From the NCBI GenBank assembly GCA_963931685.1, contig OZ007038.1, forward strand, positions 529,964 through 593,963: 64,000 nucleotides of DNA, read 5' to 3'. Each line of letters opens with the position of its first letter. Within the stretch, counting starts at the first letter, position 1. The position numbers were made by a program, and so were the translations under genes. The stretch is from an uncultured Bacilli bacterium. GTDB lineage: Bacteria > Bacillota_I > Bacilli_A > RF39 > UBA660. Below are positions 10,864 through 19,237 of this stretch, piece after piece. The notes under the pieces are model-generated. The model ran no database searches. It was given only the letters and a program-made list of their open reading frames with translations, and had not been told where the DNA came from.

Positions 10864-11808
10864 ATGAATAGACAAATGTTTTTTGAATTACTTAAAGAAA
10901 ATATATGCATTCAAGATGAAGCTTTAAAAAAATTAGTATGGGTATTATATAATAATTTTTATGGAGAAAATAGTATTAAAGAAAATATCTTACTTATAGG
11001 TGATCTTGGAAGTGGAAAAACTACTATGATAAAGGAAACTGCAGAACTTATGGATATACCGATGGGTGAGGTTTATAATGCTTTTTCATCAAATGAAATA
11101 AATTATGATTTGATTGCTAGCGGTTTATTTCAAATGAATATGAATGGTAATAATGGTGGAGAAGGTATTTTATTACTTCATGATTTTCAAGATAGTTTTA
11201 TTTATGGTCATAACCAAGAATTTAATGCAATGATAGCTTCTGGAATTTTGAATTTAGGTGAATATGGTTATTTTAATTCATCTGATGTAATATTTATTGG
11301 TGAGATAGATACTGATAATGTTCGTAATATTTTTGCAGGGAGTCAAGGATTATCTGATTTAGATAATGATGATTTTGTATCGCCAACTTTAAATATTATA
11401 AAAGATTATTTATCAAAGGCAAACCGGATTACTGAAGATGAAAATGGTGATAGATCAGCAAATGTTGGTTTTGAAAAATATATTTCAGATATAATTAGAA
11501 ATCGTTTTTTAAGTTCTAATAGTATGCAAGCTTTTAAAAGAAAAATTTATATGGAAGATATGGGTACTGTGGAAATAGTTAAAGCTTTATCATCACCAAT
11601 TTCTGCTTTGAATTTATATAAAGATGATTTATTAGATGAATATATCGATTCAGATGTGTTTAGAAAAAAGGTTGCAGGATATATCTTAGAAAGTGGAGAA
11701 GGTCTTCATGCGACTGAAGCGGCTATTGAAAATACCTTTATAAATGATGCTAAAAAAAATAAGAAAGTTTTAAAAAAAGATTCTTTGTTTATTTCTCGCA
11801 GGAAATAA
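10864..11808 (+). CDS. Degenerate ClpX/HslU-like AAA+ protein, paralogue 1. Walker A is intact and Walker B has no Asp-Glu pair.
   Basis: LKKLVWVLYNNFYGE...ENILLIGDLGSGKTTMIKETAELMDIPMGEV parallels ClpX (AKKVLAVAVYNHYKR...[27 protein letters not shown]). The Walker B equivalent reads GILLLHDFQD, where ClpX has GIVYIDEIDK. The ClpX zinc-binding N-domain and C-terminal region are absent. Confidence 0.5.
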   Translation: MNRQMFFELLKENICIQDEALKKLVWVLYNNFYGENSIKENILLIGDLGSGKTTMIKETAELMDIPMGEVYNAFSSNEINYDLIASGLFQMNMNGNNGGEGILLLHDFQDSFIYGHNQEFNAMIASGILNLGEYGYFNSSDVIFIGEIDTDNVRNIFAGSQGLSDLDNDDFVSPTLNIIKDYLSKANRITEDENGDRSANVGFEKYISDIIRNRFLSSNSMQAFKRKIYMEDMGTVEIVKALSSPISALNLYKDDLLDEYIDSDVFRKKVAGYILESGEGLHATEAAIENTFINDAKKNKKVLKKDSLFISRRK

Positions 11809-11824
11809 AATCGCGGAGGTATTT

Positions 11825-12763
11825 ATGGAAACAAAAGAATTATATAATGAATTGAGAGATTTGCTATGTAATCAAGATAAGGCTTTAAAAGATCTTGTTT
11901 GGACTATAGCTAGAAATAGAAAATTAAATAGACCTAAAAATGCTTTATTGATAGGTGAACTAGGTAGTGGAAAAACTACAATGGTAGAATTAACTGCTCG
12001 TAAAATGGGTATACCTGTAGTTGGAATGTCAGGTTTTTTTACTCCACAAGGAGTAGAACCTATGGTTTTATATAATGCTTTTATGGGATTGTTTGCTGAA
12101 AATAATCAAAAAGGATGTCAAGGAATTGTTTTGATTCATGATATGAAAGATGTTTTTCTATATGGAGGTTTTTCTACTTTAAATTCTATAATTACTGCTG
12201 GTTCTTTTACTTATAATAATCATGTTATTGATGTTAAAAGTACTATGTTTATTGGTGAGATTGATAATAATGGTTTAGAAGATTGTTTTACTTCAAATCC
12301 TATATATACAATTGATGATATAGATAAAGCAATTTATCCTTCGGTATGTAGTAGTGATGAAGTTACTGAAGTAATTAGCAATATAATAGATGTTTATGGT
12401 GGAGTTACTGATGAAGAAGTAGATAGTAATATGTTTTATGATCAATATAGGGAAGCATTAAAAAAGACTTTTTTATCTCCAGAGTGCAGTAAAGTATTTA
12501 ATAAAAAAATTTTTATGGATGCGATTGGTTTTGAGGATATTAAAAAAGCCTTAAGTTCTCCAGTATCAGAATTACAAACATATAGTGATGATTTATGCGA
12601 AGAATATATTTCATCACCGCAATTTATAAATTCAGTGGCTGGACATATCAGTGAGAGTTTAGTTGGTTTACATGATTTAGATGATGCCGTTAGAGATGTA
12701 TCTAGAATAGATAGTAAAAGGAAGATTAAGGTTTATAAAGAGAATTCTTTATTAAAATTATAG
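11825..12763 (+). CDS. Degenerate ClpX/HslU-like AAA+ protein, paralogue 2 (tandem duplicate of the preceding gene)
   Basis: ALKDLVWTIARNRKLNRPKNALLIGELGSGKTTMVELTARKMGIPVVGMSG. The Walker B equivalent is GIVLIHDMKD. The product is collinear with paralogue 1 throughout, e.g. the shared C-terminal block IFMDAIGFEDIKKALSSPVSELQTYSDDL matching IYMEDMGTVEIVKALSSPISALNLYKDDL. Confidence 0.5.
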   Translation: METKELYNELRDLLCNQDKALKDLVWTIARNRKLNRPKNALLIGELGSGKTTMVELTARKMGIPVVGMSGFFTPQGVEPMVLYNAFMGLFAENNQKGCQGIVLIHDMKDVFLYGGFSTLNSIITAGSFTYNNHVIDVKSTMFIGEIDNNGLEDCFTSNPIYTIDDIDKAIYPSVCSSDEVTEVISNIIDVYGGVTDEEVDSNMFYDQYREALKKTFLSPECSKVFNKKIFMDAIGFEDIKKALSSPVSELQTYSDDLCEEYISSPQFINSVAGHISESLVGLHDLDDAVRDVSRIDSKRKIKVYKENSLLKL

Positions 12764-12765
12764 AT

Positions 12766-13563
12766 ATGGAAAAATATCAAGAAGTAGAAAGAAGTATTAT
12801 TAAAAAATTTAGACCATCTATATGGCATAATTTTGTTAAAGCAGTTAGTAATTATGATTTGATTGGTGAAAATGATAAGATAGCTGTTTGTATAAGTGGT
12901 GGTAAAGATTCTTTTTTGCTTGCTAAATGTTTAGAAGAACTTCAAAAACATGGAAAGATTAAATTTGATTTAGAATATGTTATCATGAATCCAGGGTATA
13001 CTGATGAGGTTTTAAATAAAATTAAGGGTAATTTAAAAATTTTGAATATAAATGCTCATATATTTGAAAGCCCTATTTTTAAAATTATTAGTAAAGAAAA
13101 AAATCCTTGTTATTTATGTGCTAAAATGCGAAGAGGATATTTGTATAATTATGCTAAGGAACTTGGGTGTAATAAAATTGCATTAGGTCATCACTTTGAT
13201 GATGTTTTAGAGACTATTTTAATGAATTTAATATATAATGGAATGTATGCGGGAATGATGCCTAAACTTAGAAGTGATAATTTTGAGGGTATGGAGCTTA
13301 TTAGGCCTTTATATTTAATTAGAGAAGATAGTATTTTAGATTGGGTCAAATATAATAATTTATCATTTATTGATTGTGCGTGCAGTGTTACTAAAAAAGA
13401 TATAGGTAAACGTAAAGAGATGAAAGAATTAGTTAAAACTTTGAAAGAATATTATGCAGATGCAGATAGGAATATATTTAATTCTATGCATAATGTAAAA
13501 TTAGATAAAGTAATAAATTATTTTTACGAAGATAAAGCAAATGTCTTTTTAGATAAATATTAA
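12766..13563 (+). CDS. ttcA: tRNA-cytidine(32) 2-sulfurtransferase, TtcA family (PP-loop ATPase with an Fe-S cluster)
   Basis: CISGGKDS (PP-loop), CYLCAKMRRGYLY, IALGHHFDDVLETILMNLIYNGMYAGMMPKL, IRPLYLIRE and IDCACS are collinear with E. coli TtcA (VCLSGGKDS, CSLCSRLRRGILY, IALGHHRDDILQT...PPKL, PCNLCGS). Confidence 0.75.
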   Translation: MEKYQEVERSIIKKFRPSIWHNFVKAVSNYDLIGENDKIAVCISGGKDSFLLAKCLEELQKHGKIKFDLEYVIMNPGYTDEVLNKIKGNLKILNINAHIFESPIFKIISKEKNPCYLCAKMRRGYLYNYAKELGCNKIALGHHFDDVLETILMNLIYNGMYAGMMPKLRSDNFEGMELIRPLYLIREDSILDWVKYNNLSFIDCACSVTKKDIGKRKEMKELVKTLKEYYADADRNIFNSMHNVKLDKVINYFYEDKANVFLDKY

Positions 13564-13591: not shown

Positions 13592-13680
13592 TATATATAT
13601 ATAAAAATTATATAGCTATGATTTTTAATTATATTATTATACTTTAAAAAAAATAGATTGTAAGGTATAATATAGGGGAA

Positions 13681-14274
13681 ATGGAGGGTATTATGGCTAA
13701 AGAAAGAGAAGTTACAATTCTTAATATTGATGAGGAGACGTTTATTAAACGATTGTTAGAACATGGTGCAATTAAAAAGGATGAATTTTTACAAAGAAGA
13801 TATACATATGATTTTAATCCAGTAATGCCTAATAAATGGATTAGACTTAGGACAAATGGGAAAAAAACAACTTTGACTATTAAAGAGATAAGGGATAAGA
13901 ATGCTATTGATGGAACAATGGAATTAGAAACGGTTGTTGGTGATTTTGATGTTATGAATAGTATCTTAAAAGAACTAGGATATGTTTATAGAAATTATCA
14001 AGAGAATTACCGAAAAATTTATGTTATAGAGAATGTAGAAATTTCAATTGATTCTTGGCCTATGATACCAACTTATGCTGAAATAGAGGGCAAGAGTAAT
14101 GAAGATGTTGTACGAACTTTAGAATTATTAGGTTATACTTTAGAAGAGGCAACTACTTTAGATGTTACTTCTATTTATAATGAAATATATGGTATTGATT
14201 TACTTGGAATAAAAGAATTAAAGTTTGAAGGGAGTAATCATGAAAGTATGTTGGAACATAACAAGCAAATGTAA
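13681..14274 (+). CDS. CYTH-domain protein (triphosphate tunnel metalloenzyme fold; CyaB/thiamine-triphosphatase-like). The N-terminal ExExK motif is divergent.
   Basis: The CYTH-like blocks are WIRLRTNGKKTTLTIKE, KIYVIENVEISIDSWP and YAEIEGKS. Compare B. subtilis YjbK: ALRIRHKG..TLTLK, FDHSFY and YEIEFEV. The alternative start at 13693 (MAKE...) has RBS GGAGGG. Confidence 0.55.
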   Translation: MEGIMAKEREVTILNIDEETFIKRLLEHGAIKKDEFLQRRYTYDFNPVMPNKWIRLRTNGKKTTLTIKEIRDKNAIDGTMELETVVGDFDVMNSILKELGYVYRNYQENYRKIYVIENVEISIDSWPMIPTYAEIEGKSNEDVVRTLELLGYTLEEATTLDVTSIYNEIYGIDLLGIKELKFEGSNHESMLEHNKQM

Positions 14275-14977
14275 TAGGAATTGTAAGTATTGTTTTAAAT
14301 TTAATAAAGATGATTTGTCTTTAGAAAAAAATAAAAAGGTACTTGATAATTTAGTTAAACTTGGGGTAAAAAAAATTTCGTGGACTGGCGGAGAACCTTT
14401 TTTATACAAGGAGCTTCCTATATTATTAAAATTAAGTAAAAAATATGGAATTATTAATTCTGTAAATACTAATTTAACAACTGTTGATATAGATAATTTA
14501 AAAGAAAAAATTGAAAATATTGATAGACTGATTATTTCTTTGGATTTTGTTCGTGATGATCTAAATTTAAAATATGGCATTGGTAAAGATTATTATTTAC
14601 ATGTGTCAAAGATTTTGAAAAAAATTAAAGATATTAATCCTGATATAATTATACAATTGAATACAGTATTATTTAGCGGAAATATTTCTCGTATGAATGA
14701 GTTATATGAAGAGATTAATAAATATAATATAGATTATTGGAAAATAATAAGATTTTTACCAATTAGAGGAAAAGCATACGCAGAAAAAGATGTTTTAGCA
14801 ATCACGGATGAACAGTTTGAGAATTTTGTTTCTCAGTTTAATAATAGAAAACAAAAATTTAAAATAATTATTCATGGATTAACAGAAATGGAAAAAAAGC
14901 ATATTATTGTGTTAAGTTCAGGAAAGCTTATTTATAGTGAAAAGGGGCAGGATGTGGAAGTTAAATCTTTAATATGA
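14240..14977 (+). CDS. Viperin-like radical SAM enzyme (prokaryotic viperin / pVip-like), 246 aa
   Basis: CNRNCKYCF (CxxxCxxC) with ISWTGGEPFL matches viperin CNYKCGFCF...INFSGGEPFL. LIISLDFVRDDLNLKYGIGKD matches [28 protein letters not shown] matches FKINSVI. YWKIIRFLPIRGKA...LAITDEQFENFVSQF matches RWKVFQCLLIEGEN...FVIGDEEFERFLERH. The start at 14240 has RBS GGGAG and overlaps the CYTH gene by 35 nt. The track's TTG start at 14225 is less likely. Confidence 0.65.
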   Translation: MKVCWNITSKCNRNCKYCFKFNKDDLSLEKNKKVLDNLVKLGVKKISWTGGEPFLYKELPILLKLSKKYGIINSVNTNLTTVDIDNLKEKIENIDRLIISLDFVRDDLNLKYGIGKDYYLHVSKILKKIKDINPDIIIQLNTVLFSGNISRMNELYEEINKYNIDYWKIIRFLPIRGKAYAEKDVLAITDEQFENFVSQFNNRKQKFKIIIHGLTEMEKKHIIVLSSGKLIYSEKGQDVEVKSLI

Positions 14978-14993
14978 GGAAAGGAAGTTAATA

Positions 14994-15887
14994 ATGGATA
15001 AAAATATCAACTTAAATTTATATCGAATTTTTTATGAAGTGGCCAAATATCATAGTATTTCAGATGCTGCTAAAAATATGTATTTGTCGCAGCCAGCAAT
15101 TAGTAAAGCTATTAAAAACTTGGAAAGATAATTAGATGTTATGTTGTTTTATAGAACACTAAATGGAATAATTTTGACTGATAAAGGAAAAGAATTATTT
15201 TTATTAGTTGAAGAAGCTTTGAGTAGTTTTAGACAAGCAGAGAAGAAAATGATGGAAAATAAAAATTTAGAAAAAGGTTCTTTATCTATTGGGGTTCGTT
15301 CTAATGTTGCTTCCTTTTATTTGCTTGATAAAATTGCTGATTTTCACAAAAAATACAATAAGATTGATATAGTAATTATTGATAGACCTAGTAGTGAATT
15401 ATTAGAGATGCTTTCCAATAATGAAATTGATTTTGTACTTGATTCGTTATCTGATAAGGATGAATTAGATGGTTTTGATGTAAAACCTTTGGATAATTTT
15501 ACTCATGTTTTTGTAACACTTCCTAATTTGAAAATTTTATCTGATAAAAACGTATATCATTTAAAAGATTTAGAATCACTTCCGCTTATATTACCTGTTT
15601 CCCATAGTTCTCATAGACAATATTTAAATAATTTAGCAAAGGAAAATAATACAGAATTTAATAATGTACTTTCAATTGAAACGAGTGAACTTATTTATAG
15701 TATGGTTAAAAAAGGACTTGGAATAGGGTATATTTTAAAAGATATGGTAAAAGGTGATATTGATAGAGGTAATTTACGAGAAATAAAAATTAAAGAAAAA
15801 TTACCTGATATATCTTTAAATTTGATATGTAAGGAAAAAAATTTAACTGAGGCTCCACGGAGGTTTATAGATGAGTATTTAAAATAA
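14994..15887 (+). pseudogene. LysR-family transcriptional regulator interrupted by an in-frame TAA at 15129-15131 (HTH 14994-15128; effector-binding domain 15141-15887)
   Basis: The ATG at 14994 encodes a classical LysR HTH (LYRIFYEVAKYHSISDAAKNMYLSQPAISKAIKNLER) and then hits TAA. The same frame continues as LDVMLFYRTLNGIILTDKGKELF..., the LysR linker and substrate-binding domain (ORF 15141-15887). The downstream ATG has no RBS. Confidence 0.6.
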
Positions 15888-15909
15888 CATGAAAAAATGT
15901 TATTTTTTT
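15885..15909 (+). terminator. Rho-independent terminator after the lysR remnant
   Basis: The hairpin TAACAT-gaaaaa-ATGTTA is followed by TTTTTTT. Confidence 0.6.
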
Positions 15910-16051
15910 ATTACTTTTTTTGATGGCAATTACTTATAAATATATGACTTTAAACTTTAGTTATATGAATAATTTATAGTTATGTTTTTATGAAATATTA
16001 GTATTTTTACAATGCCTTAATTTGTGATACATTTAAATTGAAGGAGGAAAT

Positions 16052-17530
16052 ATGTATAAGGTAATTGCAATTAGTGGTTATTCTGGTAGTGGTAAAACTA
16101 CTATTAGTGAGGAGATATTAAAAAATTGTAATGATTTAATTTATTTTGATTTTGGTTTTTTATTTAGGCCTGTGACATACTATTTAATGAATGAACTGAA
16201 AATGACTGAAGATACTATTCGTACAATGGTGATGAGTGGAGAGTTAAAGAAAAAAATTAAATTAACTTACAGAGTTTTAGATAATAAAGTTGAAGTAGGA
16301 GTAAATAATAATTTTTATGATTATGATATTTTAAATAGTTTAAAAATGAATATGGATACAGTTATGGTTGGTTCAATAATTGGTGATGAATTAAATGATG
16401 AATTGAGAGTTATAATTGATGATTTAAAGAAAAGTAGTAATATTTTACTTAATGCGAGAAGACCAATTGTGGTATATCCGGATGCGGATTGTCATATTTT
16501 TTTAGAAACTGATTTTGATGAAAGAGTAAGAAGAAAAATGTTGATGAATGGTGAAGATTACGAAACAACTGTAAGTAAACTTATGAAACGTGATCAAAAA
16601 GAGAAATCTAGTGGTTTTTGGGAAAAATATGATTTTACTAAAACTATTGATACTACTGGTTTATCTAAAGAAGAGGTATTACAAAAAGTTTTGAAAATTA
16701 TAAATAACAATTTTGTTTATTTTAATAATTTAACTTTAATTTTAGGTTCTTATAGGTGTAATAAAAATTGTCCATATTGTATTGCAAAGAATAATCAAAA
16801 GTTTTCTGTTTGTGATAATTTGGAACGATTAGATGAAATTTTAAATGAGTTACAAGAAAATGATATACGATTTAAAAGGTTTGTAGTGAGTGGAAATGGT
16901 GAACCATCATTATATTCTTTAGAAGATTTAAGGTTGATAAAGGAAAGTTTACTCAAATATAGGGATTTATTTGAAATAGTTAGAGTACATTCTTCTGGTA
17001 ATATATTTAACGAAGAAGATAAATTTGATATTTTCGGTTTAGCTGATTTACCACTTGAGTTTGAAATCCTTAGAGTTGCTTTAGATTCAAATGTTGATAT
17101 GGACGTGCTTGAATATAACAATGATTATTTAGAAAGTCCATTATTTAAAAGAGGTAATATAAAATGTGATATTGCTTTGACAGATTATTTAGAAAATACT
17201 GATTTATTATTTCAATTAAATCATTTTTTGGAAAATAATCCATCAATTAAAAAGGTTAGATTAAAAAGATTATTAGTAGGGGATAATGATACTACAATAC
17301 AAGCTAAATGGGTTAAAGAACATTCACTTGATAATGATGAAATTCAGAGAGTGGTTAAAGAATTAGGATTAACTTTGAAAAATGGTATTTATCAATCTGA
17401 GGATAGAAAAATTCTTTATAAAATGAGTGGAGATTATGATTTTGATTATGTTGTTAATGCAGGTGAATTTCAAAATTATGAAAATAAAAAATGCCATATC
17501 AAAGTTTTGAGAAGAAAGTTAGGTGGTTAA
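16052..17530 (+). CDS. Fusion protein: N-terminal cytidylate kinase (Cmk)-like P-loop NMP kinase domain (aa 1 to ~222) plus C-terminal viperin-like radical SAM domain (aa ~225-492)
   Basis: The N-terminal half is collinear with B. subtilis Cmk: IAISGYSGSGKTT matches IAIDGPAAAGKST, FDFGFLFRPVTY matches IDTGAMYRAITY, DADCHIFLETDFDERVRRKM matches NAEVKIFLLASVEERAKRRY, and IDTTGLSKEEV matches IDTTSLSIQEV. The C-terminal half carries CNKNCPYC (CxxxCxxC), FVVSGNGEPSL, ILRVALDSNVDMDVL (viperin [16 protein letters not shown]) and KKVRLKRLLVGDND (viperin VRWKVFQCLLIEGEN). Confidence 0.7.
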   Translation: MYKVIAISGYSGSGKTTISEEILKNCNDLIYFDFGFLFRPVTYYLMNELKMTEDTIRTMVMSGELKKKIKLTYRVLDNKVEVGVNNNFYDYDILNSLKMNMDTVMVGSIIGDELNDELRVIIDDLKKSSNILLNARRPIVVYPDADCHIFLETDFDERVRRKMLMNGEDYETTVSKLMKRDQKEKSSGFWEKYDFTKTIDTTGLSKEEVLQKVLKIINNNFVYFNNLTLILGSYRCNKNCPYCIAKNNQKFSVCDNLERLDEILNELQENDIRFKRFVVSGNGEPSLYSLEDLRLIKESLLKYRDLFEIVRVHSSGNIFNEEDKFDIFGLADLPLEFEILRVALDSNVDMDVLEYNNDYLESPLFKRGNIKCDIALTDYLENTDLLFQLNHFLENNPSIKKVRLKRLLVGDNDTTIQAKWVKEHSLDNDEIQRVVKELGLTLKNGIYQSEDRKILYKMSGDYDFDYVVNAGEFQNYENKKCHIKVLRRKLGG

Positions 17531-17531
17531 A

Positions 17532-18242
17532 GTGAGACAGATATTAAAATTTATTGGAACAGGAGGTGCTTTTTCTAGTAAGTATGTAAATAATTCGGCT
17601 TATTATTATTTAAAAAATGATGAGATACTTTTATTTGATTGTGGGGAAACGGTGTTTCATGAAATTTTAAAATTAGATATTATAACCGAGAAGATTAAAA
17701 GGATAGATATTGTGATTACACATTTTCATAGTGATCATGTTGGAAGTTTGGGAAGTTTGATTTTTTATTTAAGATTTAAAAAGATAAAAGAAGTTAATGT
17801 GATTTTTCCGATAAAGACACTTCCTTATATGTTATTACAAATTTATGGCATAGATGAAAGTCTTTTTAAAGTAAAATTGCCAGAAGAAGTAGATGGATAT
17901 TATATTAAAGAATATGAACAATTACATGGTGATGTTGATGTAGATGGTAATATTGTATCAATGCCTAGTTATGGATATCATGTGGTGAATGATAATGATA
18001 ATTTCTTTTATAGTGGTGACACATGTATTATAAGTGATATAATATTAGAGAAGTTTAAAAGTAAAGAGATTAAGATAATGTATCACGAAGTTACAACAGA
18101 TGGATATAAATCGCATATGCAGTTAGAAAATTTAGTAGAGATTATTCCTTTTGAGGATAGACAAAGAGTAGTTTGTATGCATATGGGTGATGGTGTAGAT
18201 GTATCAGAAATAGAAAAATTTGGATTAGAAAGTGTGAGGTAA
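17532..18242 (+). CDS. MBL-fold metallo-hydrolase, RNase Z / PhnP-like (possible cyclic-nucleotide or phosphodiester hydrolase)
   Basis: FIGTGGAFSS...LLFDCGE and ITHFHSDHVGSLGS (HxHxDH). A GTG start at 17532 follows RBS AGGTGG directly after the upstream stop. The track's start at 17523 is an alternative. Confidence 0.65.
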   Translation: MRQILKFIGTGGAFSSKYVNNSAYYYLKNDEILLFDCGETVFHEILKLDIITEKIKRIDIVITHFHSDHVGSLGSLIFYLRFKKIKEVNVIFPIKTLPYMLLQIYGIDESLFKVKLPEEVDGYYIKEYEQLHGDVDVDGNIVSMPSYGYHVVNDNDNFFYSGDTCIISDIILEKFKSKEIKIMYHEVTTDGYKSHMQLENLVEIIPFEDRQRVVCMHMGDGVDVSEIEKFGLESVR

Positions 18243-18244
18243 TT

Positions 18245-18820
18245 ATGAAAGAAGAATTAGAAGTTTGTGTGAGATCTTTAGTTCCTTTTGAAGATTTATA
18301 TAATGATATGATAGATTTAGGTTTTCATGTACAGGAAGATTTTGTGTTGAATGATATTTACATGGTTAAAAATGATGTAGAAGTATCTTTAGATAATGAA
18401 AATGTAATTTTTTCTGATTATGTTTTAATTAGAGAAACAGTAGGAAAACGAAAAATGCTTGTTTTAAAACATAAGGAATTAAATTCTAAAGGTGAGATAA
18501 CAAAACAAGAGTCAGTTAAATGTCCAATTACAGATTGTGATAAAGCATATGATTTTATGAAAGCTATCGGTTATAAAAAATTATTTGAAATAAGTGATCA
18601 TAATGTTTTGATGAGTAATGGAAAAAATGAAATTTATATTCAAAGAGTTAAAGGGTTAGGTACTTATGTAGAAATGGAACAAAAGAATTTACTTTTGGAA
18701 AATAATAATGGTAATACAATTGATGAAATGAAAAATGTTTTATGTGATTATAATTTAAAAATTGATACTAGTGATTATTTTGTGAGAAAAGCATATGATG
18801 CTTTAAAAGAAACTGTCTGA
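18245..18820 (+). CDS. Second CYTH-like domain protein (divergent)
   Basis: YVLIRETVGKRKMLVLKHKE, EIYIQRVKGLGTYVEMEQK and the N-terminal EELEVCVR follow the CYTH pattern (RIR..TLK, G.f.EiE). It lies 2 nt after the MBL gene stop. Confidence 0.45.
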   Translation: MKEELEVCVRSLVPFEDLYNDMIDLGFHVQEDFVLNDIYMVKNDVEVSLDNENVIFSDYVLIRETVGKRKMLVLKHKELNSKGEITKQESVKCPITDCDKAYDFMKAIGYKKLFEISDHNVLMSNGKNEIYIQRVKGLGTYVEMEQKNLLLENNNGNTIDEMKNVLCDYNLKIDTSDYFVRKAYDALKETV

Positions 18821-19237
18821 TTGTTATTACGCATATCCGTTGTTTCCTTTATTTATGGTTTAAATTTATAATTAAACTAAAAGCAGGCTGTGAATACTTG
18901 TTTTTGCATATGTTTATAGATTTATAAATTTAATAAAACTTTTAAAATAAAGAATATAATTGTTATATTTAGCTATGAATAGTAACATCTGATTATGGTA
19001 AATATTGTTAACTTTTGTAAAGATACTGGTCAAACTAAAATATATATGATATAATTTAATTGTCTAAAAGAAGAATACCGCTATGAAAAACCTACTAAGT
19101 ATAACGATTGGGAATCTAATTCGTTGGTGGTGTAGAATACTTTAATTTATTAGAGGATCCTAAAACTGATGATGTGATGCCCACCTGGGAGATCAGGTTT
19201 TTAATTCGTTAAGGTTTCTCTTTTGGACTTTGCTTAA

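What the first reader, a model, noticed from the sequence alone, without database searches (positions are those of the whole stretch)
14240..14977. Standalone viperin homologue translationally coupled to a CYTH gene
Each viperin-like block listed for this feature lines up, in order, with human viperin core motifs; the colinear region ends at ...LAITDEQFENFVSQF, which mirrors viperin ...FVIGDEEFERFLERH. The start overlaps the upstream CYTH gene by 35 nt, which implies coupled expression of a triphosphate-handling enzyme with the radical SAM enzyme. This second paralogue is only distantly related to the fused one, which suggests different nucleotide specificities (ddhCTP, ddhUTP or ddhGTP).
Basis: partly seen in the sequence, partly recalled or inferred. 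Interest (0 to 1): 0.7.

Follow-up and report, generated by a model that had tools for sequence, protein, structure and literature searches.

The report
Truncated viperin-like enzyme paired with CYTH
This gene encodes a radical-SAM enzyme with the fold of the antiviral protein viperin but without several residues viperins need to bind and convert nucleoside triphosphates; it belongs to an undescribed sister group that is almost always encoded with a triphosphate-handling CYTH enzyme and a LysR regulator, so it probably makes a different or differently handled modified nucleotide.

Summary
ORF 14240-14977 (+) is a 245-aa radical-SAM protein, colinear with viperin, and its ATG overlaps the upstream CYTH gene by 35 nt.

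Viperin is the closest known family by sequence and by fold, but the protein is not a canonical viperin:
- It scores 126.5 bits against NCBIfam viperin_w_prok, whose cut-off is 180.
- It has C-W-N where viperins have N-Φ-H.
- Ile, Gln and Tyr replace three conserved basic pocket residues.
- His replaces the catalytic Tyr.
- It ends before the C-terminal Arg/Tyr γ-phosphate clamp.

It belongs to a large unnamed clade of short "CW" viperin-like proteins. An orthologous CYTH gene sits directly upstream in most members examined. A LysR gene lies directly downstream, and in six protein clusters LysR is fused to the enzyme.

The family containing the window protein occurs in uncultured gut Bacilli. 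I found no copy in phage records. The kinase-fused radical-SAM gene 1 kb downstream is not viperin-like, so the locus does not hold two viperin paralogues.

Most likely this is a regulated two-enzyme nucleotide-modifying module whose phosphate handling differs from viperin. Substrate, product and biological role are inferred, not shown. I rate it a new variant of a known kind, of moderately high interest.

The parts
13595..13634 (.). AT-rich dyad (18-nt arms, 4-nt gap) upstream of the promoter. Candidate operator for the co-encoded LysR regulator.
   Evidence: Inverted repeat with 83% complementary arms. A dyad of the form AAAAA..TAT-N-ATA..TTTTT lies at the equivalent place in L001 and L014, and the alignment of upstream regions puts a similar element there in further orthologous loci. 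Binding by LysR is inferred, and chance palindromes are common in AT-rich DNA.
13643..13671 (+). Promoter-like site TTTAAA-17-TATAAT in front of the CYTH gene.
   Evidence: 10 of 12 matches in the consensus scan, although the scan as a whole is not enriched over shuffles. The (T)GTATAAT -10 element is conserved in position across orthologous loci.
13681..14274 (+). CYTH / triphosphate-tunnel-metalloenzyme gene (CYTH1). The likely true start is the ATG at 13693.
   Evidence: Pfam CYTH E = 2.1e-5. NCBIfam cyaB 39 bits, below its cut-off. Best PDB hit is the triphosphate tunnel metalloenzyme Saci_0718, E = 5.5e-6. ExEx[T/K], RxR, K..K, ExE, R..E..R, D and ExE are conserved in 15 orthologues, and most orthologues start at the M equivalent to 13693.
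14230..14234 (+). Shine-Dalgarno GGGAG for the radical-SAM gene, lying inside the last codons of CYTH1.
   Evidence: Read from the sequence. GGGAG, GGAG or GGGGA is conserved 5-8 nt before the start in most orthologous loci.
14240..14977 (+). The finding: a 245-aa viperin-like radical-SAM enzyme of the truncated 'CW' clade.
   Evidence: See the full report.
14994..15887 (+). LysR-family regulator gene 16 nt after the radical-SAM stop. In this window it is interrupted by an in-frame TAA at 15129-15131.
   Evidence: LysR_substrate E = 1e-31. Intact 297-aa orthologues follow the radical-SAM gene by 4-21 nt in 14 of the 17 loci measured; the start was not resolved in the other three. The window has TAA where L007, L008 and L010 have GAA. 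Six protein clusters fuse the radical-SAM domain to a full LysR.
16052..17530 (+). Cytidylate-kinase / radical-SAM fusion. A variable accessory of the module, and not viperin-like.
   Evidence: Cytidylate_kin E = 6.9e-14 and Radical_SAM E = 1.1e-7. Present in about half of the orthologous loci. The radical-SAM domain model has pLDDT 90.3. Its best PDB folds are EpeE, NosL and HydE with TMq no higher than 0.54, and no viperin appears.
17523..18242 (+). Metallo-β-lactamase-fold hydrolase similar to RNase Z and Apyc1. Variable accessory.
   Evidence: Lactamase_B_2 E = 4.8e-11. Anti-Pycsar_Apyc1 scores 47.7 bits against a cut-off of 50. It co-occurs with the fusion gene.
18245..18820 (+). Second, divergent CYTH-like gene (CYTH2). 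Variable accessory.
   Evidence: NCBIfam cyaB 41.8 bits, below its cut-off. No Pfam or PDB sequence hit. Orthologues are present in 12 loci.

Best explanation
ORF 14240-14977 encodes an active radical-SAM enzyme with the viperin fold. It belongs to a previously unnamed, C-terminally truncated sister group of viperins, called the 'CW clade' here after the C-W-N that replaces viperin's N-Φ-H.

It is one component of a conserved three-gene module:
- a catalytically intact CYTH (triphosphate tunnel) enzyme directly upstream;
- the radical-SAM enzyme, translationally coupled to it;
- a LysR-type regulator directly downstream, fused to the enzyme in some relatives.

Inferred mechanism. As in viperin, the enzyme probably uses the 5'-deoxyadenosyl radical to attack the ribose of a nucleotide. 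However, it has lost the γ-phosphate clamp, three basic pocket residues and the catalytic Tyr. The phosphate part of the substrate must therefore be different or be handled by the partner. Either CYTH converts an NTP before the radical step (to an NDP, NMP or cyclic form), or it trims or cyclises the product afterwards. LysR adjusts expression to a pathway metabolite.

The module is conserved on the chromosomes of one lineage of small-genome gut Bacilli. It is not a free-standing, mobile, canonical antiviral pVip.

Shown here: fold, clade membership, residue differences, gene linkage and distribution. Inferred: substrate, product, order of the two enzymes and biological role.
For: Fold and nearest family:
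- The AF2 model has pLDDT 94.6.
- The 18 best PDB folds are all viperins, TMq 0.81-0.87.
- viperin_w_prok is the best NCBIfam model at 126.5 bits. The next non-viperin family, MoaA, reaches 58 bits.

Not canonical:
- It is below the 180-bit cut-off and aligns only to profile positions 3-250 of 281. Canonical pVips P0209, P0210 and P0217 score 258-301 bits, and the first two align over the full profile.
- The table below uses human viperin numbering.

| Position | 8 canonical viperins | Window's family (71 sequences) |
|---|---|---|
| 76-78 | N-Φ-H, 8/8 | C-W-N in 63 |
| R193 | R, 8/8 | Ile in 69 |
| K219 | K, 8/8 | Gln in 57 |
| R244 | R, 8/8 | Tyr, Cys or Asn in 61 |
| Y301 | Y, 8/8 | His in 68 |
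| K246 | K, 8/8 | Lys in 70 |
| N221 | N, 8/8 | Asn in 69 |

- The protein ends near human residue 325, before R346-G-G-K-Y350. Mutating that Arg and Tyr to Ala abolished ddhNTP synthesis in human and fungal enzymes (bioRxiv 10.64898/2026.09.10.750538).
- The model fits apo viperin, which has 258 ordered residues, better (TMt 0.81) than CTP-bound viperin with its ordered tail of 291-293 residues (TMt 0.73-0.74).

Clade:
- 210 cluster representatives match the family profile at E < 1e-30.
- On the shared core, the window protein scores 245 bits against an HMM of 97 CW-clade sequences built without its own family. It scores 157 bits against a canonical-viperin HMM.

Linkage:
- CYTH1, the radical-SAM gene and LysR are adjacent in all orthologous loci where the contig covers them.
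- CYTH1 orthologues of 38-60% identity also sit directly upstream of distant CW-clade members P0087, P0100, P0085 and P0090, and near P0086.
- Overlaps are 23-47 nt or gaps 2-12 nt.
- The catalytic acidic and basic residues of CYTH are conserved.
- Radical-SAM/LysR fusions occur in six clusters that share less than 50% identity. LysR is divergently transcribed next to P0088.
- Other neighbours in the clade act on nucleotides: NUDIX, HD, Ham1, thymidylate kinase, PfkB kinase and a nucleoside phosphorylase-family (PNP_UDP_1) protein.

Distribution:
- Hosts are uncultured Bacilli, including Ca. Coprosoma and one 1.52-Mb chromosome.
- There is no family member in IMG/VR or in GenBank phages.
Against: - No biochemical data exist for any member of the clade, so nucleotide chemistry rests on homology of fold and on the neighbouring genes.
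- Basal CW-clade members keep R193, K219, R244, K246 and Y301. They might still be NTP dehydratases, so the clade may not be uniform in function.
- Some members sit with U32 peptidase-family and methyltransferase genes and have neither CYTH nor LysR nearby.
- My neighbour-joining trees did not resolve whether the CW clade is sister to canonical viperins or paraphyletic to them.
- The roles I assign to individual viperin pocket residues partly rest on my memory of Fenwick et al. 2020, which I could not re-read.
- PADLOC's pVip models match at E = 1e-38, so automated defence finders may well call this gene a pVip.
Confidence: 0.6

Rival explanations
1. It is a bona fide prokaryotic viperin: an antiviral ddhNTP synthase that chain-terminates phage transcription. 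CYTH would be an accessory, for example detoxifying the product or supplying substrate, much as nucleotide kinases accompany other pVips.
For: - Viperin is the best family hit in NCBIfam, PADLOC, PDB sequences and PDB folds.
- A cytidylate-kinase gene lies 1 kb downstream, echoing the pairing of viperin with CMPK2 or other kinases.
- One canonical pVip (P0215) is fused to a Ppx/GppA phosphatase domain, so phosphatase partners exist in true viperins.
- One distant CW-clade member sits with its CYTH in a phage-like region.
- An Abi_2 gene lies about 7 kb upstream in locus L004.
Against: - It is below the curated cut-off (126.5 vs 180 bits).
- N-Φ-H, R193, K219, R244 and Y301 are all replaced, and the R-G-G-x-Y clamp is absent. 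Mutating the clamp residues abolished activity in canonical enzymes.
- It is always paired with a LysR regulator and is conserved across a whole lineage beside housekeeping genes (aspS, a ttcA-like gene, rnhC), not in a defence island.
- The kinase is fused to a radical-SAM domain that is not viperin-like.
Confidence: 0.15
2. It is a signal-making enzyme. Its product, a modified nucleotide, is the effector of the co-encoded or fused LysR regulator. CYTH makes the precursor or degrades the signal. The module would then be a transcriptional sensing circuit rather than a metabolic or defence pathway.
For: - Six independent clusters fuse the radical-SAM domain to a complete LysR, with HTH and effector-binding domains.
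- Another relative carries a weak receiver-domain match, and the neighbour of P0088 resembles a receiver domain.
- Between the window and each locus compared, LysR is more conserved than the enzyme (52-87% vs 53-80% identity).
- A positionally conserved dyad lies upstream of the operon.
Against: - An enzyme next to a LysR regulator is also the ordinary arrangement for a substrate-induced catabolic or biosynthetic operon.
- No ligand is known.
- In this window the LysR gene itself carries a stop codon, so here the module would lack its receiver.
Confidence: 0.15
3. It performs unrelated radical chemistry on a non-nucleotide substrate, such as a cofactor, a tRNA or rRNA base, or a natural-product intermediate. 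The viperin-like fold would only reflect shared ancestry.
For: - Some CW-clade members are encoded with U32-family proteins, methyltransferases and ATP-grasp enzymes.
- One relative is fused to a BpsA_C polyamine-synthase domain.
- The catalytic Tyr is replaced by His and the pocket is less basic.
Against: - In the window's own family, and in most contexts examined, the partners are enzymes that act on nucleotides or triphosphates: CYTH, kinases, NUDIX, HD, Ham1 and a nucleoside phosphorylase-family (PNP_UDP_1) protein.
- K246 and N221 of the viperin pocket are kept in nearly all members.
- No SPASM or twitch domain and no MoaA C-terminal domain were detected.
Confidence: 0.1

Closest known systems
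Viperin / prokaryotic viperins (pVips; RSAD2; 'SAND'; NCBIfam NF038283, PADLOC pVip)
   Same: - Radical-SAM CX3CX2C and GGEP motifs.
- The same partial-barrel fold, including the β8 region (TMq 0.81-0.87 to 5VSM, 6Q2P and 9DFN).
- Colinear sequence blocks.
- K246 and N221 of the pocket are kept.
- Association with genes that act on nucleotides.
   Different: - 126.5 bits against a 180-bit cut-off.
- C-W-N instead of N-Φ-H.
- R193 to Ile, K219 to Gln, R244 to Tyr, Y301 to His.
- About 30-35 C-terminal residues are missing, including the R-G-G-x-Y γ-phosphate clamp.
- Obligate CYTH and LysR partners.
- Conserved within a lineage on the chromosome rather than scattered in defence islands.
CYTH / triphosphate tunnel metalloenzymes (SaTTM Saci_0718, CthTTM, class IV adenylate cyclase CyaB, thiamine triphosphatase)
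   Same: - The partner protein has the CYTH domain.
- Its closest solved relative is SaTTM.
- It keeps the acidic pairs and basic residues that line the tunnel.
   Different: - The Lys of ExExK is Thr in the window's family, though it is Lys in more distant orthologues.
- It is below the cyaB cut-off.
- The papers searched do not describe any CYTH coupled to a radical-SAM enzyme.
Viperin with a nucleotide kinase (CMPK2-viperin in vertebrates; pVip-kinase pairs and fusions, PADLOC PDLC02905, VakA)
   Same: A cytidylate-kinase domain is encoded in the same cluster. It matches VakA weakly, E = 4.5e-6.
   Different: - The kinase is fused to a different radical-SAM domain that is not viperin-like.
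- The fusion protein does not match the pVip-kinase fusion model.
- The kinase gene is absent from several orthologous loci.
MoaA (GTP 3',8-cyclase)
   Same: It is the next-best characterised family (58 bits) and a radical-SAM enzyme that acts on a nucleoside triphosphate. Viperin studies use it as the outgroup (Shomar et al.).
   Different: - The score is far below the cut-off of 284 bits.
- No Mob_synth_C domain or second cluster is present.
- The fold match is much poorer (TMq 0.57-0.60, rmsd 9.5-10 Å).

Membership tests
Canonical viperin / pVip (NCBIfam NF038283) | Radical-SAM CX3CX2C cluster motif and GGEP SAM-binding motif | tested here: met
   C11, C15, C18 and G50-G51-E52-P53 are invariant in 33 family members. 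Pfam Radical_SAM E = 1.2e-18.
Canonical viperin / pVip (NCBIfam NF038283) | Whole-protein score at or above the curated cut-off (180 bits), with a full-length match to the profile | tested here: not met
   126.5 bits, aligned to profile positions 3-250 of 281. Canonical controls score 258-301 bits, and P0209 and P0210 align to positions 3-280.
Canonical viperin / pVip (NCBIfam NF038283) | Viperin fold as the nearest structural neighbour | tested here: met
   The model has pLDDT 94.6. The 18 best Foldseek PDB hits are viperins, E about 1e-14 to 1e-16 and TMq 0.81-0.87.
Canonical viperin / pVip (NCBIfam NF038283) | N-Φ-H motif seven to five residues before the first cluster cysteine | tested here: not met
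   The window has C4-W5-N6. Eight of 8 canonical sequences have N-Φ-H, and 63 of 71 family members have CWN.
Canonical viperin / pVip (NCBIfam NF038283) | Conserved pocket residues K119, R193, K219, N221, R244 and K246 (human numbering) | tested here: not met
   The window has K, I, Q, N, Y, K, so three of the four Arg/Lys residues other than K246 are lost. The canonical set is identical at all six positions in 8 of 8 sequences.
Canonical viperin / pVip (NCBIfam NF038283) | Conserved active-site tyrosine (human Y301, mouse Y302) | tested here: not met
   His221 in the window. His in 68 of 71 family members and Tyr in 8 of 8 canonical sequences.
Canonical viperin / pVip (NCBIfam NF038283) | C-terminal tail with the R-G-G-x-Y clamp on the γ-phosphate | tested here: not met
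   The protein ends at the position of about human residue 325. The clamp, R346...Y350, is present in the canonical pVips aligned. It is essential according to the work read.
Canonical viperin / pVip (NCBIfam NF038283) | Conversion of NTP to 3'-deoxy-3',4'-didehydro-NTP, and protection against phage | not testable with these tools
   Needs enzymology and LC-MS, plus plaque assays.
Truncated 'CW' viperin-like clade (defined in this report) | C-W-x motif, length of about 245-290 aa without the clamp, sub-threshold viperin score, and a higher score to the clade HMM than to a canonical-viperin HMM | tested here: met
   245 vs 157 bits with the protein's own family left out of the clade HMM. Relatives P0084-P0100 score 120-168 bits on NF038283 and align only as far as profile positions 244-250.
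Truncated 'CW' viperin-like clade (defined in this report) | An orthologous CYTH gene directly upstream and/or a LysR gene adjacent or fused | tested here: met
   In the window, CYTH overlaps by 35 nt and LysR starts 16 nt downstream. The same holds across the orthologous loci, and CYTH and/or LysR is adjacent in 8 of 9 informative distant contexts.
CYTH / TTM (the partner gene, 13681-14274) | CYTH domain with an N-terminal ExExK motif and the conserved acidic and basic residues of the tunnel | tested here: met
   Pfam CYTH is above its cut-off (24.9 vs 23.2 bits). ExExT is seen here and ExExK in distant orthologues, with RxR, K..K, ExE, R..E..R, D and ExE conserved. Enzyme activity was not tested.
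MoaA | C-terminal Mob_synth_C domain with a second 4Fe-4S cluster, and a score above the cut-off | tested here: not met
   58 bits vs 284. No PF06463 hit.
SPASM/twitch peptide maturases | C-terminal SPASM or twitch auxiliary-cluster domain | tested here: not met
   No PF13186 hit. The scores to these families (about 41-54 bits) come from the radical-SAM core only.

The most novel reading that the evidence does not exclude
The truncated viperin-like enzyme and its CYTH partner together synthesise and turn over a modified nucleotide. This nucleotide would be the effector of the co-encoded LysR regulator, which is fused to the enzyme in six lineages. Viperin-type radical chemistry would then be used in bacteria for transcriptional signalling, for example reporting nucleotide, SAM, redox or infection state, rather than for direct chain termination.
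Probability: 0.15. Interest if true: 0.85.

Novelty: new variant of a known kind. Interest (0 to 1): 0.6.

Why it matters
Viperins are the best-known example of an immune enzyme shared by humans and bacteria, and they are thought to have one job, making chain-terminating ddhNTPs.

This gene represents a large group of unnamed relatives. At least about 200 clusters at 50% identity match the family profile at E < 1e-30. They keep the viperin fold but lack the γ-phosphate clamp. The window's own family has also lost the catalytic tyrosine. Members are typically encoded next to a triphosphate tunnel enzyme and a metabolite-sensing regulator.

If the pair makes a new nucleotide derivative, it would widen the known chemistry of the viperin scaffold. 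It could yield new nucleotide analogues. It would also show how the antiviral enzyme relates to regulated, possibly non-immune, nucleotide metabolism.

There is a practical point as well. Viperin detection models that lack a strict score cut-off may label such genes as pVip defence systems.

Tried and rejected
- **Phylogeny.** Neighbour-joining trees of 140-150 domain sequences with generic radical-SAM outgroups were unstable. Canonical viperins were monophyletic in only 44 of 100 bootstraps, and the root was unresolved. I replaced this with a leave-family-out HMM comparison. Whether the CW clade is sister or paraphyletic to viperins remains open.
- **Structural papers.** I tried to read Fenwick 2017 and 2020, Lachowicz 2021, Rivera-Serrano 2020 and Bernheim 2021. 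None is held. The roles of individual residues therefore rest on conservation seen here, on the Shomar et al. preprint and on a 2026 preprint.
- **Literature on the pairing.** Searches for viperin + CYTH, CYTH domain + radical SAM, and viperin + LysR returned nothing relevant.
- **Riboswitch.** A search upstream of the operon, which could have named a ligand, found none.
- **Phage origin.** There are no family members in IMG/VR or GenBank phages.
- **Source annotations.** None of the family members looked up carries a name.
- **The idea that the fused radical-SAM gene is a second viperin.** Rejected on pairwise comparison, PDB sequence search and fold search.
- **Truncation artefact or pseudogene.** Rejected. 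About 70 clusters share a length of 244-257 aa. The model is confident to its last residue. The LysR start follows within 4-21 nt.
- **An error of mine.** The 'LysR_N' query used the wrong start, 15005 instead of 14994, and so was out of frame. Its hits reflect DNA conservation only. The correct frame and the stop codon were established.
Full report
**1. The observation**

The + strand carries an ORF from 14225/14240 to 14977. The ATG at 14240 follows a GGGAG at 14230-14234. It yields 245 aa beginning MKVCWNITSKCNRNCKYCF, which contains a radical-SAM CX3CX2C motif, followed by GGEP.

The upstream ORF (13681-14274) is a CYTH-domain protein (Pfam E = 2.1e-5).

Similarity to viperin is not a chance pattern:
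- NCBIfam viperin_w_prok: E = 1.1e-36.
- PADLOC pVip: E = 1.6e-38.
- The nine best PDB sequence matches are all viperins or viperin-like enzymes. The block LAITDEQFENFVSQ aligns with F-T/V-I-S/G-D-K/E-Q/E-F-E-x-F.

**2. Structure**

An AlphaFold2 model built on 33 family members is very confident (mean pLDDT 94.6, pTM 0.91). Against the PDB, the 18 best Foldseek matches are mouse, fungal and cnidarian viperins (E about 1e-14 to 1e-16, TMq 0.81-0.87). Next come SkfB, SuiB, BlsE, DesII and MoaA with poorer scores.

The model covers apo viperin (5VSM, 258 ordered residues, TMt 0.81) better than CTP-bound viperin (6Q2P, 291-293 residues, TMt 0.73-0.74). The extra residues in 6Q2P are the C-terminal tail, which orders on the nucleotide.

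**3. Why it is not a canonical viperin**

The NCBIfam score of 126.5 bits is below the curated cut-off of 180. It covers only profile positions 3-250 of 281.

An exhaustive profile search gave 210 cluster representatives with E < 1e-30.
- Those closest to the query are 234-290 aa. They also score 120-168 bits and also stop at profile positions 244-250.
- True pVips among the hits (P0209, P0210, P0217) score 258-301 bits, and the first two match the whole profile. They share 32-38% identity with human viperin through residue 348 or beyond.

I aligned all hits to an HMM that includes human viperin. Positions use human numbering.

| Position | 8 canonical | 103 other 'CW' relatives | 71 members of the window's family |
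|---|---|---|---|
| 76-78 | N-Φ-H, 8/8 | C-W-x | C-W-N in 63 |
| K119 | K, 8/8 | K in 53 | K 30, R 20 |
| R193 | R, 8/8 | R in 90 | Ile in 69 |
| K219 | K, 8/8 | K 62, R 19 | Gln in 57 |
| N221 | N, 8/8 | N in 97 | N in 69 |
| R244 | R, 8/8 | R 49, K 21 | Tyr 40, Cys 15, Asn 6 |
| K246 | K, 8/8 | K 70, R 21 | K in 70 |
| Y301 | Y, 8/8 | Y in 68 | His in 68 |
| C-terminal R-G-G-x-Y | present in those aligned | absent in most of those inspected | absent |

A 2026 preprint reports that human R346 and Y350 hydrogen-bond the terminal phosphate of the NTP. It also reports that changing them to Ala abolishes all ddhNTP synthesis in the human and fungal enzymes. Shomar et al. place base recognition in the β8 loop (mouse C314 and K319). 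That loop is present here, but what follows it is not.

On the shared core, with the tail excluded, the window protein scores 245 bits against an HMM of 97 CW-clade sequences that excludes its own family. It scores 157 bits against a canonical-viperin HMM.

My neighbour-joining trees did not resolve the deep branching. I therefore claim a distinct clade nearest to viperins, not a specific sister relationship.

**4. The gene neighbourhood is the strongest lead**

*The window's own family.* It comprises about 70 clusters at 90% identity, 244-257 aa long and 48-81% identical to the query. It occurs in uncultured gut Bacilli, including Ca. Coprosoma and a 1.52-Mb chromosome.

In every locus recovered, the order CYTH1, radical-SAM, LysR is kept wherever the contig covers it.
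- The CYTH stop overlaps the radical-SAM start by 23-47 nt in 12 of 17 loci. It lies 2-12 nt upstream in the rest.
- LysR starts 4-21 nt after the radical-SAM stop in the 14 loci where it could be measured.

A second block follows in about half of the loci: a cytidylate-kinase/radical-SAM fusion, an MBL hydrolase and CYTH2. Elsewhere it is partly or wholly missing.

*More distant CW-clade members.* The same partners recur.

| Member | Context |
|---|---|
| P0087 | Radical-SAM/LysR fusion directly after a CYTH1 orthologue (60% identity) |
| P0100 | NUDIX, NUDIX-HD, CYTH, radical-SAM, LysR |
| P0085 | Ham1, CYTH (41% identity, overlapping), radical-SAM |
| P0090 | CYTH, radical-SAM, DNA ligase in a phage-like region |
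| P0086 | Two CYTH genes and a thymidylate kinase nearby |
| P0092 and L021 | Radical-SAM then LysR |
| P0088 | Radical-SAM/PfkB-kinase fusion with a divergent LysR |

Six representatives that share less than 50% identity are full radical-SAM/HTH/LysR-effector-domain fusions. One member (P0104) sits with U32, methyltransferase and ATP-grasp genes, without CYTH or LysR. The clade is therefore not uniform.

**5. The partner enzyme**

CYTH1's closest solved relative is the triphosphate tunnel metalloenzyme SaTTM. Fifteen orthologues conserve the acidic pairs and basic residues of the CYTH tunnel. The N-terminal motif is ExExT in this family and ExExK in distant orthologues.

Most orthologues begin at the Met equivalent to 13693, which is probably the true start.

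The conserved C-terminal '...ESMLEHNKQM' of CYTH1 is simply the other reading frame of the conserved radical-SAM N-terminus. CYTH genes that stop before the radical-SAM start lack it.

**6. Regulation**

- A -10 element ((T)GTATAAT, 13666-13671) is conserved in position across loci.
- A long AT-rich dyad lies upstream (13595-13634 here; AAAAAGTCTTTAT-N3-ATAAAGATTTTTT in L001). It is a candidate LysR operator.
- No riboswitch was found.
- No convincing terminator separates the genes from 13681 to 18820.
- In this window, the LysR gene (14994-15887) has an in-frame TAA at 15129-15131 where three close relatives have GAA. This is either a pseudogene or an assembly error.

**7. The 'fused paralogue'**

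The radical-SAM domain of the kinase fusion (16052-17530) resembles the standalone enzyme only over 54 residues around the cluster motif. It has no significant PDB sequence hit.

Its confident model (pLDDT 90.3) matches only generic radical-SAM folds (EpeE, NosL, HydE, PFL-AE; TMq no higher than 0.54). No viperin appears in the top 50.

The fusion does not match PADLOC's pVip-kinase fusion model. Its kinase matches VakA only weakly. The locus therefore holds one viperin-like enzyme, not two.

**8. Mechanism**

Shown:
- an intact radical-SAM site;
- the viperin fold;
- retention of K246 and N221;
- loss of the clamp, of three basic residues and of the Tyr;
- obligate, translationally coupled CYTH;
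- an adjacent or fused LysR;
- neighbours that act on nucleotides.

Inferred:
- The enzyme still attacks a nucleotide ribose by a radical route.
- The phosphate moiety it sees differs from the free triphosphate that viperin clamps. One possibility is that CYTH first converts an NTP. By my own knowledge, CYTH enzymes such as CthTTM hydrolyse PPPi and NTPs, and CyaB cyclises ATP. The other possibility is that CYTH acts on the product.
- His221 could serve as a general acid or base, but not as the proposed electron and proton donor.
- LysR ties expression to a pathway metabolite. The fusions raise the possibility that the product itself is the LysR effector.

**9. Comparison with what is known, and novelty**

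The gene works most like viperin and is closest to it. It fails five of the defining sequence features that I could test, so I do not file it as a pVip.

I found no paper that describes a CYTH/radical-SAM pairing or a viperin/LysR pairing. No source gives these proteins a name. The methods of Shomar et al. state that sequences with apparent C-terminal truncations were removed when their viperin profile was built. That may be why the clade has gone unnoticed.

Verdict: a new variant of a known kind, with interest of about 0.6.

Noticed in passing
window 14994-15887 (stop at 15129-15131): The LysR gene of the module is interrupted by an in-frame TAA after codon 45, inside the HTH region. L007, L008 and L010 have GAA there. 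An in-frame ATG at 15141 could restart translation of a protein with only the effector domain. This is a pseudogene, a strain-specific loss of regulation, or an assembly error.
   Followed up: partly
window 16052-17530: This is a cytidylate-kinase/radical-SAM fusion whose radical-SAM domain has no specific known relative. The best PDB folds are EpeE, NosL and HydE with TMq no higher than 0.54, and the domain is not viperin-like. Standalone homologues of the radical-SAM domain (270-334 aa) also exist. With the MBL and CYTH2 genes it forms a second, variably present block of unknown function.
   Followed up: partly
window 17523-18242: The MBL-fold hydrolase carries an intact HxHxDH motif (HFHSDH). 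It scores 47.7 bits on the anti-Pycsar Apyc1 family, just under the 50-bit cut-off, and 68 bits on RNase Z, far under that cut-off. It could be a cyclic-nucleotide or nucleic-acid phosphodiesterase.
   Followed up: no
window 19058-19233 (+): A 6S RNA (Rfam RF00013; 49.9 bits against a gathering score of 46.4; full-length match) lies just downstream of CYTH2. A terminator-like hairpin lies within it at 19183-19198.
   Followed up: no
window 10864-11808 and 11825-12763: Two tandem paralogous P-loop proteins (314 and 312 aa, 33-37% identical across the paralogue pair in related loci) have only weak AAA and TsaE N-terminal matches. A TtcA-like PP-loop ATPase gene follows at 12766-13563. The trio is syntenic upstream of the module in the closest relatives (L007, L008, L010, L011) but not in more distant ones.
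   Followed up: no
P0087, P0089, P0102, P0105, P0120, P0121 (e.g. L053 6001-7686): Single polypeptides of 561-564 aa join a CW-clade radical-SAM domain to a complete LysR regulator, with HTH_1 and LysR_substrate domains. They fall in six clusters that share less than 50% identity. P0087 is preceded by a CYTH gene and followed by an NMT1-type ABC transporter.
   Followed up: partly
L089 4458-5744: A CYTH/radical-SAM pair from the same clade sits in a phage-like region. Neighbours include a PARP-like 'polymerase' PHROG, an ATP-dependent DNA ligase (phrog_114), RNase H and many small ORFs. The pair may therefore also be carried by mobile elements or phages.
   Followed up: partly
P0215 (673 aa): A canonical pVip, with N-W-H and all pocket residues, is fused at its N-terminus to a Ppx/GppA phosphatase-family domain. 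True viperins can therefore also be joined to an enzyme that handles polyphosphates or nucleotide phosphates.
   Followed up: no
L062 2054-5628; L091 5001-8780: Some CW-clade members are encoded with a roughly 700-aa Peptidase_U32-family protein and a roughly 240-aa methyltransferase-like protein. In L091 an ATP-grasp enzyme and a chorismate-mutase/DAHP-synthase gene are also present. This hints at a different function for that branch.
   Followed up: no
window 14240-14274 and orthologous loci: The C-terminal 10-14 residues of CYTH1 ('ESMLEHNKQM') look conserved only because they are read from the same DNA as the conserved radical-SAM N-terminus (MKVCWNITSKCN) in another frame. The same tail ('LLEYNRKM') appears in a CYTH orthologue of 41% identity (L088).
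   Followed up: yes
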